Assembly: GCA_051362555.1 (NCBI GenBank)
Contig: CM120648.1
Span: 11,156,587-11,220,586 of the forward strand
Length of the DNA: 64,000 nt
Reading direction: 5' to 3'
Source: Lingula anatina
Taxonomy: Eukaryota > Animalia > Brachiopoda
Positions 1,419-18,000 of this stretch are shown piece after piece; the first letter of the stretch is position 1; each line of letters starts with the position of its first letter. The position numbers were made by a program, and so were the translations under genes. The notes under the pieces are model-generated. The model worked only from the letters and a program-made list of their open reading frames with translations, ran no database searches and was not told the DNA's origin.

Positions 1419-2965
1419 TTAAACTCGCCGTTTGTGCAATTTATGTAATTGGTGTAGTCTAAATGTCACATCATGCCTAAATACCTTTGCAGGAGCTAGA
1501 TTTTTCATCAACCAAACAAGAAGAATAAATACACTAAAAATGTATTAATTCCTACACTGATGAGCATTGTAAAGCATTTAGAAGCTCATAGGGAACTAAA
1601 ATACGAAATTCAATATACATTAATAATTATAATTTAAAACATTTCACATTTCTAAAATTATGAAAATGATACAGGTTAAAGAATAAAATAGTTCAAAGGG
1701 AGAATGTAAAATTTATACAAAATGAGTTTTTAACTACCCAATACATACAAAAGAATCCCTTTTAGTCTTCAACTTGAACTAGACTAAGACAATGATAGTA
1801 TTTATAATACAATAAACCCAACTACTCTCATGATTCTTTGGCAATATATTCTTGTGTAGACAAAGTGGCTGCAAGTTTGAAAAGAACTACATAATAATAA
1901 TAATAATAATAATAATAATAATAATAATATCAGGGAGAAAAGCATTGGCAAAAATGTATAGATAATGTATAGATAAAATTATAGCAATTTACCCATATAC
2001 TAATATAACTCACAATAGTACTGTCTTCGCAGGTGTACATTTACAATATAATATAATATGTAAGTCCAGGCGTGACAAGCTTTTCACCACTTTTCTCTTG
2101 CACAAGGGAGGCAGTGAAAAAGATGGTGCAAAATGGGACAGGTGGGAGAAAATGGGAGAATATTATGGATGAGCAGAGTGCTGTATTTGGCATGGAGTCA
2201 CATGTGAGTATGTTGGGTGTGACAATGTGTCAGTTGAGACAAAGCTGTTGGCATGACAACACTTTTGGTAGGATACCACATTAGGATAGCAATGCTTTGG
2301 AAACAAGCATAGTCATTTTCGCTTTTTTGCTTCATCTCCATTGAACACAAAGGGTGCTACAGATTCCATATGGAGAGTTACAATGTAAGTTTATTCAGTA
2401 TTCTTAAACAGCAGAACGGCAAAACACCATATCACAAGTTTATAAGGTGCTGTATTGCCCTAGAGTAGCCAATATGCACCAAAAGGTTCCTCTTGCTTAC
2501 TTTATCTGAACTATAGGGGTCACCAGTGCATGTCCATCACATCTGTAGGTGTCACTTATGTACAAGAGAGTCCCTTTTTAAACTGTGCTTGCATGTCTCT
2601 TCCATGTCACACATGGATCTCAAAGTAAACGGCATACCAGACACCAAAGTTAATGGTCACACCTTTTCAAACACAAAAAGTTTTCACAGCTTTTCAATGC
2701 AAATGCACTTTATGTTGTAACTCGTGTCTTTTTGCTTTCAATACTTCCTGTGAGAAACCGCTGATTTTCTCAAGTCAGCTGCACCTCAAAGAAGAAGTTA
2801 TGACTTCCTTCATTTAATGTTTCCTGTATGAAAAATATCTGCTGCTTCTCCATGAAGTCCCAGTCTACATTGTTATAACCTGTTGGCCAATATTTCACTA
2901 CTGTGGCTTGTTTTCTGCACTGAAAATGGTCCTAATTTTCAAAGTATAGGTGTCACTACTGTAGC

Positions 2966-3030
2966 TTATCCCCCAAGATGTCCAGGAATGTCTCCCCGCT
3001 GTGGTCCTCGTCTAAATCGTTCCCCGTTTC
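2966..3030 (-). CDS. MEGF6: Probable MEGF6 terminal coding exon ([21 protein letters not shown])
   Basis: Acceptor ttcaattctag; GC-rich coding-like island in AT-rich DNA; open in phase 1 to TAA at 2966-2968; AATAAA downstream at 2390-2395 and 597-602. Confidence 0.6.
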
Positions 3031-15000: not shown

Positions 15001-18000
15001 AACTCTAAATTCAGCAAGATGAAAAATGTCATCTTTACAGCAACATTTCTCTTCATTAACATCAGTCTGCCTGAGCTGTTTATGGTAAAATTCATCAAAC
15101 ATTTTAATATTTGAAAAAAGAAAAAGTTCCCCAGCATATATATGAATTCTAGTACTTTTTCCACCATTTCTTCCACTTATGACTATGGCGGTGTTTTCTC
15201 ATGTATTCCTTTGCTTTTGGCCACAACTGAGGCTCAGAATCTGAGGAGACTGTAAAGTAATATTCAAAACAGTCATAACTTTCTTTTATATTTTTTTCAG
15301 AGACATTAAAATTGACATGAAGTAGACAGGTAAAGATATTGAAAGTAAGCTGGTGTAAATTGCTTTGAAGTCTACATTAACAGAAAAAGTAAATAAGTCG
15401 AAGGTCTAATTATCTGTAATGTACACATATCAATCTCATTAATTTTGTAAAGTAAATCATATGAAAGGGAATCCAATAAAATCTGTCTATAGAACTATTA
15501 TATCAACATACATTGCATGGAAATGATATGAAAGCTGTACAGTTGCAACCCAGAATCATGACAGAAAGGATAAAAGGCTACCCAAAAATACCATCAAAGT
15601 CAAAATTGCCATGCAAACCCCAAAACAAAGCAAACATAAAAAGACATACAAAAAAAAAATAATAAATAAATAAATAAATAAATAAATAAATAAATTTAAA
15701 TATATATATATATATATATATATATATATATATATATATATATATGCACCAATGTAGTAAAAGTAGATCTGAGTGAAAAAATTACCCTATCTGTAAAAAT
15801 TCTATTTGATCACTATCTGAATAGTCTAATAAATCTGAACAGTCTAATAAACAAACAGACAAATAAATAAATAAATAAATAAATAAATAAATAAATAAAT
15901 GTAATATTCCATACAAATGCACTACATTTTCCCTGTACATCTCTAATATACCAGGTATATATATAAATTCAACTCACCTTTAAGTCAACAAATTTACCAG
16001 GTTGCAAATACGTGTATGCACATGGTATAACATAGTATGCTGTAATGCAACTATATCCGCTTTTGCAGTCAGATGATTTTGAATATATTTATATGTAAAT
16101 CTTTGTTCTCTGAAACTGTTGTAAATTCACCAATCCACGTAGATGTATTTATACATAACAAGATTAAATGAAGAAGAACTTTTTAAAACAATGTGACTTA
16201 TTTTATTTAAAAAAATTCACTTTTTTATCCTTTTGTCTGATCTTACCCATATATGTGCCTAAAAGTCTGTTCAACAATAAGTAACAAGATCTATTCTTAA
16301 CCAAGTCCAGGAAGTGTGCAATCTTTCAACAATACCAATTACATATATATATATATCATTAACATATATTTCTGGCACCAACATAATAACATAGTATAAA
16401 ACTAAACCAGCAAATGTAGCTACATGTATCAATGACAGTGCAACAATTAAATAACCTTGCTATAATACAACAATATTGATGCAGCAGGATACCTTTGCAA
16501 AACAAGAAACTGGGCATACTGAAGCAATGATAATATAGTCTCTTTAAGACAATAGTTTCTGTGGCTCTCTTCCCGGGATGGGGGGGTGGGGGGTGGAGGT
16601 ACCCCAGGGGACTGCCAGGAGTTAGGAGGGGGGTGGAAGAGGGCAATATAATATATTATACTTGTAAAGGGATAATTATTTCTACAGGTTTCAACAAAAA
16701 AGCATATCAAACAAAAAAATCATTCAGCATACATGCATACACACACTCACACTGAGCCTGCAAATATAGCACATATAATCCACATACTTCGACATAACTG
16801 CTCGGCAAAATCATAATTTCCATACCCAAGCCATGAATATCACATAATACTAAAATGCCCCTGCAATGCATATAATGCACAGAACATAACTCCTAAAATG
16901 CTTGTTCTGTATATGTGTACTAGTTAGTGTGCATGTGTGTGTGTGTGTGTGTGTGTGTGTGTGTGTGTGTGTGTGTGTGTGTGCGTGCATTTGTGTGTCC
17001 ACGTAACGCATGAATAGTATATAAGCCACAGTCTTATATTGTATACGTACTTACCATCACTACACGTTTTGCCAATGTATCCTTTTTTACAAATACATTT
17101 TCCTGTGAAGCGGTCACACTCTTTGCTGTTCTTGCTACATTCACAAACCAGCCTGCAGTCTGGGCCATAGAAACCTTCCATACAAACTGAAATATGACAC
17201 ATATTTTTGTTAAATTGACTTCATAATTCACACAATTATACCTTATTTAAATATTCTATTTTAAGTCAAGACAATGAAGATGTGTTAGCAAAAAAGTATC
17301 ATCTTTACGTATGAGAAAATTAAAGTTTTTGTCAATGACAATATATGTTTCACCTACATGTTTTGTCGCAGAGATCAAAACAAAACAAAAAATAAAAAAT
17401 AAAATAAAAAATAATGGAAGAATAATTTCTGTCATTAACAATATACATTCATACTACATATCTGTCACTGATATCGATCAAAACAAACAAAATTAATGGA
17501 TAAATAGCTTTCTTACTGAAAGCTCTCAAAGTATCATAATTAAAAGTAAAAATTTTGAGATATTTTGACAATATATCCTCTGCATCACATCACATGACTT
17601 CTTACGTGTGTCACATGACATCCCTGTCCAGCCATTGGTGCAGTTACATGCGCCAGTCACATGATCACACAAGGCACCATTGCTGCACATGCATCTCTGA
17701 CCACAGTTCGTGCCATAAAAGAAAGGTTCACAAGCTGAAATATGATTTAGAAATGTTTAACCAATAGCTAAAAATAGCTAGAATGTCCATTTTCAAAAAT
17801 TTAAAAATAACCTAAGTCTTGGTTATAAGAGTTTGTAAAAGTTTTACTTTTCTTGTGCAAAGTTATAACATTAATCCACAACTAAAGGTATATATTTTTT
17901 ATTAACATGTATGTTGCACCTCACAAATTAATCATCCTTATCAAGTGAAATTGTTTCTGATGATTACTTCATAAAATCTTGAAACATATATATACAAAAA

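What the first reader, a model, noticed from the sequence alone, without database searches (positions are those of the whole stretch)
2956..17054. Candidate C-terminal 'tail-switch' system: two clusters of alternative terminal exons with parallel architecture
Seen: after exon 17055 and again after exon 9390 (both phase-1 donors) the intron holds, in transcript order, three elements. First, an in-phase hydrophobic terminal exon (16359-16492; 4940-5115). Second, a short phase 1-to-0 exon with a strong donor (15978-16039; 4178-4209); both peptides contain GKFV. Third, a terminal exon that reads sensibly in two frames (15149-15249; 2956-3030). Inference: one MEGF6 locus could make short or long EGF rods ending in a basic, RGD, acidic or membrane-anchoring tail. 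I know MEGF6 as a secreted protein without such a tail repertoire. All of this rests on splice-site patterns only.
Basis: partly seen in the sequence, partly recalled or inferred. Interest (0 to 1): 0.8.

Follow-up and report, generated by a model that had tools for sequence, protein, structure and literature searches.

The report
MEGF6 gene ending in RGD tail
This is an ordinary matrix-protein gene (MEGF6) whose RNA reads splice straight to one last exon ending in an RGD cell-adhesion motif that nematode, scallop and rotifer relatives also carry; the proposed membrane-anchor exons look like chance intron sequence, and one upstream exon likely, but untested, gives a shorter form with a positively charged tail.

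Summary
The six segments exist at the stated coordinates, but the two-cluster tail-switch is not supported. The gene is MEGF6 (minus strand, 29 exons plus a last exon) and matches the published Lingula anatina model g23516.t1.

Downstream cluster (tested with reads): the only splice joint listed was 9390 to 3030, with 12 reads in 3 of 4 RNA runs. This gives a short RGD tail. The body of hydrophobic exon 5115-4940 had zero depth in 4 of 4 runs. No joint was listed for micro-exon 4209-4178, but joints under 3 reads are not shown. RGD also ends MEGF6 in C. elegans, scallop and rotifers, and a second RGD lies in a linker exon (26615-26457).

Upstream cluster (not covered by reads): 16492-16359 looks like intron, and such look-alikes occur at about 0.26 per kb in controls. 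Exon 15249-15149 has its intron's best acceptor, a non-intronic basic peptide and a poly(A) signal 41 nt after the stop, so it is probably a real alternative last exon (about 0.6-0.65). Micro-exon 16039-15978 has the gene's strongest intronic donor but a poor acceptor; it is open.

Verdict: ordinary gene, one shown RGD tail, one likely short isoform, no membrane form.

The parts
9390..52539 (-). MEGF6 coding exons inside the window: 29 exons (first EGF, 8 calcium-binding-type EGF exons, linker, 23 laminin-type EGF repeats). Signal peptide and EMI exons were not found in the window.
   Evidence: Open spliced frame of 1487 aa including the last exon, no internal stop. Domain counts and best hit MEGF6. 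Matches published Lingula model g23516.t1 by eye. No EMI-like exon in the scan above 30 kb.
26457..26615 (-). Linker exon between the calcium-binding EGF block and the laminin-type EGF array, carrying a first RGD (26581-26589)
   Evidence: Present in the Lingula model; RGD at this place also in scallop, scorpion and shrimp entries and in spider P0060.
17055..17186 (-). EGF exon whose phase-1 donor (17055) opens the 3631-nt intron
   Evidence: The Lingula model joins it to 13423. No reads were laid here.
16359..16492 (-). A1, proposed hydrophobic last exon: judged intron sequence
   Evidence: GC 0.31 against intron 0.33. Acceptor below all 28 true acceptors. Peptide scores below 98% of intron-null peptides. 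Not tested by reads.
15978..16039 (-). A2, 62-nt phase 1-to-0 candidate micro-exon: unresolved. If spliced onto 13423 it would shift the frame to an early stop.
   Evidence: Donor best of 2618 intronic GT; acceptor mid-range among decoys. Frameshift stop. Not tested by reads.
15149..15249 (-). A3, likely alternative last exon: 32-residue K/R/H/W-rich tail in phase 1, ending a short form after 13 of 23 repeats
   Evidence: Best acceptor of its intron, above 15 of 28 true sites. Charged fraction 0.50, reached by 0.4% of null peptides. 2 comparable elements in 62.5 kb of controls. Not tested by reads.
15103..15108 (-). ATTAAA poly(A)-type signal 41 nt after the A3 stop
   Evidence: use inferred
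9390..9524 (-). Last EGF exon; its donor splices to 3030
   Evidence: 12 joint reads in 3 of 4 runs
4940..5115 (-). B1, proposed hydrophobic last exon: not transcribed at the depth read
   Evidence: Depth 0 in bin 4799-5057 in 4 of 4 runs; 0.11 in two columns of bin 5058-5316
4178..4209 (-). B2, 32-nt candidate micro-exon: no listed joint, weak donor; rare use not excluded
   Evidence: bin 4022-4280 depth 0.08-0.20 in 3 runs, no joint listed
2966..3030 (-). B3, the shown last coding exon: 20 full codons in phase 1 with RGD at 2990-2998, stop at 2966-2968
   Evidence: Same frame ends the Lingula model.
1950..2965 (-). 3' UTR, covered by reads in the gene's sense at least down to the bin 1950-2208
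   Evidence: X1 and X4 have depth in all four UTR bins, X3 in three of four, all on one mate orientation

Best explanation
This is an ordinary MEGF6 gene whose long transcript splices directly from donor 9390 to one last exon at 3030 and so ends the EGF rod in a short RGD tail, which likely binds integrins; it likely also has one alternative last exon at 15249 that would end a shorter rod in a basic tail. Shown: exon structure, the 9390-3030 splice, the RGD frame, and RGD at the end of MEGF6 in other protostomes. Inferred: integrin binding by the terminal and linker RGD, which would tie cells to basement membrane. Also inferred: use of 15249 by competition between splicing 17055-13423 and splicing 17055-15249 with cleavage after ATTAAA 15108, and binding of the basic tail to heparan sulfate or acidic membranes. 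The hydrophobic segments are what AT-rich intron gives when translated. The acidic second frame of 3030 is probably a by-product of a purine-rich exon.
For: Reads: only splice joint listed is 9390-3030 (X1 4, X4 0, X7 7, X3 1; 8 distinct starts); B1 bin empty in 4 of 4 runs. Published Lingula model joins 17055-13423 and ends in the RGD frame. RGD in the last 30 residues in 3 of the 6 protostome MEGF6 entries whose end is visible in that file, and RAD in a fourth. Also in Seison P0022 and 12 Rotaria proteins of one cluster. Background is 8 RGD in 65,016 tail residues. A3: best acceptor in its intron, 2 similar elements in 62.5 kb of controls, peptide unlike intron translation, and its intron is the longest of 18 in the array (3631 nt; 16 of the other 17 are 292-623 nt). 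Controls for A1 and B1.
Against: Depth is low (about 1-7x on the last exon) and joints under 3 reads per run are not listed, so minor forms at cluster B are bounded only to roughly a fifth to a third. X3 shows about 5x on exon 9524-9390 but one joint read. No read evidence for or against A3. No homologue with an A3-like tail was seen among 392 fetched proteins or in the paper's file, though close relatives were absent. A3's general protein-likeness score is only borderline (7.7% of null peptides as high) and its GC is not exceptional (15% of intron windows as high). Splice scores come from a matrix of only 28 sites. The RGD tail is not universal: absent in scorpion, Macrostomum, zebrafish and human entries, and in 19 of 20 fetched proteins of MEGF6-like architecture (many truncated models). 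Integrin binding was not tested.
Confidence: 0.6

Rival explanations
1. One last exon only: the gene always runs to the RGD tail, and 15249 is also a chance look-alike.
For: The published model has only this form. One A3-like element occurs in another sense intron and one on the antisense strand, about 0.11 expected in an intron of this length. No homologous basic tail found.
Against: Best acceptor, charged-peptide composition (0.4% of null), nearby poly(A) signal and outlier intron length coincide. The published model is a single, visibly imperfect prediction: it lacks several exons and repeats a block.
Confidence: 0.25
2. A minor frame-switch layer is real: micro-exons 16039-15978 and/or 4209-4178 are included at low level. 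They would shift the next exon's frame to give a different short tail, or a premature stop that tunes expression.
For: The 15978 donor is the best of 2618 intronic GT. The intron holds 2 micro-exon look-alikes with donors of 10 bits or more, against 1 in 62.5 kb of controls (threshold chosen after the fact). Traces of depth in the B2 bin in 3 of 4 runs. GKFV shared, p=0.0029 for the pair.
Against: No joint listed at B2. The traces (about 21-52 bases) do not fit whole 32-nt pieces, and similar traces occur in the 5058-5316 bin. B2's donor and A2's acceptor are poor. The acidic frame's stop codon at 2956 is altered in 12 of 12 X7 reads, although a second stop follows.
Confidence: 0.12
3. One reading: two parallel clusters giving basic, RGD, acidic or membrane-anchored ends.
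For: The segments exist in the stated order and phase. MEGF10/11 relatives are membrane-anchored, so such a form is conceivable (passages).
Against: B1 has no reads. A1 and B1 match control frequency and intron composition. The two clusters share no DNA similarity. None of 20 fetched MEGF6-architecture proteins has a hydrophobic tail (highest 19-residue hydropathy 0.86).
Confidence: 0.03

Closest known systems
MEGF6 (Lingula anatina g23516.t1; C. elegans Y64G10A.7; Mizuhopecten XP_021379735.1; human MEGF6)
   Same: Calcium-binding EGF block, linker, long laminin-type EGF array, short non-membrane tail. The Lingula model matches the window nearly letter for letter by eye and ends in the same RGD frame; the worm and scallop entries end with RGD too.
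   Different: The Lingula model lacks several window exons, repeats a block of late exons and has no 15249 form. Human and zebrafish entries have no RGD.
Fibulin-1C / 1D
   Same: Matrix EGF-repeat protein whose C-terminal end is chosen by alternative splicing, with different binding and location (PMC1747532, passages).
   Different: Fibulin swaps a whole folded C-terminal domain and is proven in worm and mammals. Here the candidate is a 32-residue tail that would also drop 10 of 23 repeats, and it is unproven.
EGFL6 (EGF repeats with an RGD site)
   Same: EGF matrix protein with an RGD that mediates adhesion; the RGE mutant loses it (PMC6226291, passage).
   Different: Different family. RGD function in MEGF6 is untested.
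MEGF10/MEGF11/Draper/CED-1
   Same: Same repeat type; sister family (PMC7059952, passages).
   Different: Membrane receptors without the calcium-binding EGF block. The window's gene has the block and no membrane segment.

Membership tests
MEGF6 | Block of calcium-binding-type EGF repeats before the array | tested here: met
   8 repeats in the spliced model (profile built from the window's own exons, so this is a count, not an independent test); exons read
MEGF6 | Long array of laminin-type EGF repeats | tested here: met
   23 repeats; Pfam EGF_laminin above cut-off for exon 18094-18477
MEGF6 | Best colinear match is MEGF6, not MEGF10/11 | tested here: met
   Top hits among 392 fetched proteins are MEGF6 P0298 (1110 bits) and MEGF6b P0345; near identity by eye to the entry placed in MEGF6 in PMC7059952
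MEGF6 | No transmembrane segment | tested here: met
   Highest 19-residue hydropathy 0.98 in the read-supported form
MEGF6 | Signal peptide and EMI domain at the N-terminus | not testable with these tools
   Not found in the window; no assembly held
MEGF10/11/Draper | Transmembrane segment and cytoplasmic tail | tested here: not met
   Reads end the frame 20 codons into exon 3030; B1 not covered
RGD integrin ligand | RGD outside folded repeats and kept in evolution | tested here: met
   Two RGD, in linker and tail; kept in other phyla
RGD integrin ligand | RGD-dependent binding or adhesion | not testable with these tools
   Needs an assay
Alternative last exon (15249) | Acceptor, open frame to a stop, poly(A) signal | tested here: met
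Alternative last exon (15249) | Joint reads from 17055 and 3' ends after the signal | not tested
   No reads were laid on 9701-17200
Alternative last exon (5115) | Read coverage and joint from 9390 | tested here: not met
Frame-switch micro-exon (4209-4178) | Inclusion joints | tested here: inconclusive
   None listed; joints under 3 reads are hidden

The most novel reading that the evidence does not exclude
Protostome MEGF6 is an overlooked two-RGD integrin ligand of the basement membrane, and this brachiopod switches between a long rod ending in RGD and a rod ten repeats shorter ending in a basic, tryptophan-rich tail by choosing its last exon, perhaps tuned by a frame-shifting micro-exon.
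Probability: 0.35. Interest if true: 0.55.

Novelty: new member of a known kind. Interest (0 to 1): 0.3.

Why it matters
MEGF6 is ancient and almost unstudied. In planarians its loss detaches epidermis and muscle from the basement membrane (PMC7059952, passages), with no known receptor. An RGD kept at the very end of the protein in a brachiopod, a scallop, a nematode and rotifers points to integrins. It can be tested with a single RGD-to-RGE edit in C. elegans Y64G10A.7, as done for him-4, lam-3 and unc-52 (search listing). I found no paper remarking on it, although the sequences are public. A short basic-tailed form would be an ordinary alternative last exon, of interest mainly to people working on this gene.

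Tried and rejected
1) Whole-genome checks: no assembly is held.
2) Run search: no RNA holder listed; raw-read runs of the same species label were laid instead.
3) Protein searches for this gene's own isoforms or a close relative found none. One search gave 4 hits among 29 candidates, one search was swamped by fibrillins, mostly by MEGF10/11/PEAR1, and one search gave cluster representatives, many of them truncated models. Conservation of A1-A3, B1 and B2 in close relatives is therefore untested.
4) Pfam found nothing in the six candidate peptides scanned, which came from A1, A2, A3, B1 and both frames of B3; B2 was not scanned.
5) The first control wrongly counted read-through from the real linker exon and one AG upstream of a real exon; it was redone, and only one search is used.
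6) A duplicated origin of the two clusters was rejected: no blastn match between the two introns (the A intron was given as 13431-15650 and 15911-16930, without its microsatellites).
7) The basic insert in the scallop isoform lies three repeats downstream of the 17055 junction and is internal, so it is not a counterpart of A3 (by eye).
8) A by-eye likeness between A3 and the scallop tail (5 of 18 residues) is too weak to use and was not computed.
9) Alignment A2 collapsed all exons onto one repeat and was not used.
10) Earlier notes of this scan held nothing on this locus.
11) No fold or complex was predicted: the tails are too short to be informative.

Full report
What the locus is. The minus strand carries one multi-exon animal gene. 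Twenty-nine exons from 52539 to 9390 plus the exon at 3030 splice into an open frame of 1487 residues with no internal stop. It has 8 calcium-binding-type EGF repeats, a linker, 23 laminin-type EGF repeats and no hydrophobic segment. Its best matches among 392 fetched proteins are vertebrate MEGF6. The exons match, by eye almost letter for letter, the Lingula anatina entry g23516.t1 in the S1 File of PMC7059952, so the window comes from that brachiopod or a very close relative. Signal peptide and EMI exons were not found in the window.

The observation. All six segments, their phases, the shared GKFV and the two-frame readings are in the sequence. The question is which exceed chance. I scored splice sites with a matrix from 28 of the gene's exons (rough). 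I counted look-alikes in 26.3 kb of other sense introns and 36.2 kb of antisense intron sequence (which replaces the contaminated count). Hydrophobic 'last exons' of 40 residues or more appeared 16 times in those 62.5 kb, and phase 1-to-0 micro-exons 50 times. A1 and B1 translate like random intron (98% and 70% of null peptides score higher). The pattern 'hydrophobic exon, micro-exon, last exon' is thus easy to find in any long AT-rich intron. The two introns share no DNA similarity. A shared 4-mer has p=0.0029 for one chosen pair, about 0.09 over the candidate sets by hand arithmetic.

Reads on the downstream cluster. Four of the nine listed RNA runs were laid on 1950-9700 (6-25% of each run was read). 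The only splice joint listed was 9390 to 3030, with 4, 0, 7 and 1 reads in X1, X4, X7 and X3 (8 distinct starts) and no letters between. Bin 4799-5057, which holds most of B1, had depth 0 in all four runs. The last exon and its 3' UTR were covered down to 1950, on the gene's sense in the three runs that behave as stranded. The B2 bin had traces of 0.08-0.20 in three runs and no listed joint; joints under 3 reads are hidden, so rare inclusion is not excluded. Depth is low, so minor forms are bounded only to roughly a fifth to a third. In X3 the exon 9524-9390 has about 5x depth but one joint read, which I cannot explain. Direct splicing puts exon 3030 in the RGD frame. The acidic frame needs B2, and its stop codon at 2956 is altered in 12 of 12 X7 reads, with a second stop right behind.

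The RGD frame is the conserved one. The S1 File holds 18 entries named MEGF6; 5 were cut in storage, so 13 ends are visible. RGD lies in the last 30 residues of the Lingula, C. elegans and Mizuhopecten entries, each followed by I or L and P, and Penaeus has RAD. It is absent in Centruroides, Macrostomum, both zebrafish entries, human, the shark entry (which stops within the array) and three membrane-type entries (Acanthaster, two Acropora). Among fetched proteins, 1 of 20 with MEGF6-like architecture (Seison P0022) and 12 of 41 short-tailed proteins without the calcium-binding block (all one Rotaria cluster) end with RGD; many others are truncated models. Background is 8 RGD in 65,016 tail residues. 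A second RGD lies in the linker exon 26615-26457 and at the same place in scallop, scorpion and shrimp entries and spider P0060; the worm and Macrostomum entries lack it. The Lingula model is imperfect: it lacks several exons, repeats a block of late exons and reaches the RGD exon through an X. It confirms the frame and the 17055-13423 join, not the absence of other isoforms.

The upstream cluster, not covered by reads. A1 is intron-like on every measure. A3 differs. Its acceptor is the best in the intron and beats 15 of 28 true acceptors. Its phase-1 peptide is 50% charged (0.4% of null peptides reach this) and poor in the residues that AT-rich DNA yields (0.5%). ATTAAA follows 41 nt after the stop. 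Only 2 elements with a strong acceptor, 30 open codons and a nearby signal occur in 62.5 kb of controls. The intron is the longest of 18 in the array. Against: general protein-likeness and GC are only borderline, no relative with such a tail was seen, and the features were picked after the fact. I put A3 at about 0.6-0.65. It would end the rod after 13 of 23 repeats (1066 against 1487 residues in the window). A2 has the strongest intronic donor of the gene but a mid-range acceptor. Spliced onto 13423 it would shift the frame to an early stop. I leave it open at low odds.

How it most likely works. Shown: a rod without membrane segment whose long form ends in a short tail with RGD. Inferred: it is secreted, and the tail and linker RGD bind integrins and tie cells to basement membrane. 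This fits the detachment of epidermis and muscle after planarian megf6 knockdown (PMC7059952, passages) and the RGD-dependent adhesion of EGFL6 (PMC6226291, passage). Inferred and untested: choice of 15249 with early polyadenylation swaps the distal ten repeats and the terminal RGD for a basic tail. That tail fits the recalled heparin-binding pattern XBBXBX (recalled, from no call). The closest proven precedent is fibulin-1C/1D (PMC1747532, passages).

Literature seen. PMC7059952: passages and the S1 File as stored, all five parts, long single-line entries cut. Passages only: bioRxiv 10.1101/2020.01.09.900696 (calls MEGF6 a secreted calcium-binding protein), PMC11244903, PMC9116610, PMC3306419, PMC6226291, bioRxiv 10.1101/2025.04.23.650323 (73), PMC1747532. 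Search listing only: PMC7252390, PMC8553547, PMC7252330. Searches showed no paper on MEGF6 tail splicing in invertebrates or on its RGD; most subscription papers are not searched. The cut entries and unseen preprint supplements could change the RGD tally.

Verdict. Observation partly confirmed; tail-switch system not supported. The locus is a known gene with one shown, conserved RGD tail and one likely ordinary alternative last exon. Interest 0.3.

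Noticed in passing
window 26457-26615 (-): Linker exon missed by a Cys-based scan; it carries a second RGD that is kept in scallop, scorpion, shrimp and spider MEGF6.
   Followed up: partly
window 5570-7431: About 1.9-kb insertion with imperfect terminal inverted repeats and no long frame, likely a non-autonomous DNA transposon. It draws most reads, with mixed flanks at both ends, so many copies exist elsewhere.
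   Followed up: partly
window 7338 (+): 43 reads in X1 and 50 in X3 leave the element at a GT donor and continue into one sequence that begins with ATG and is not in this window: another copy probably serves as a spliced 5' exon of a host gene.
   Followed up: partly
window 13690-13822: Copy (83%) of the 3' part of exon 13423-13295 and its donor region, about 470 nt upstream of the original.
   Followed up: no
   Followed up: no
window 14285-14551, 23448-23692, 57384-57653: Three copies of a palindromic element of about 265 nt (MITE-like).
   Followed up: no
window 2956: X7 reads (12 of 12) carry another base at the last position of the acidic frame's stop codon; X1 (0 of 2) and X3 (0 of 1) do not.
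   Followed up: no
window 9202-9460 and 8425-8683: X3 has more depth on the last EGF exon than joint reads explain, plus a sense-strand patch at 8425-8683. Read-through into the intron, where poly(A)-type hexamers lie at 9374, 9287 and 9130, is possible.
   Followed up: no
window 9390-12798 (-): The published Lingula model repeats this block of late exons, whereas the window has one copy: a haplotype or assembly duplication, or real repeat-number variation.
   Followed up: no
Mizuhopecten XP_021379735.1; matches window junction 12036-11611: The scallop isoform has a K/R-rich insert between two repeats, so optional basic segments may recur in lophotrochozoan MEGF6 at other places.
   Followed up: partly
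window 3276-3543: Degenerate 18-nt tandem array just upstream of the last exon; it gives a long W/C/L-rich open frame by repetition.
   Followed up: no
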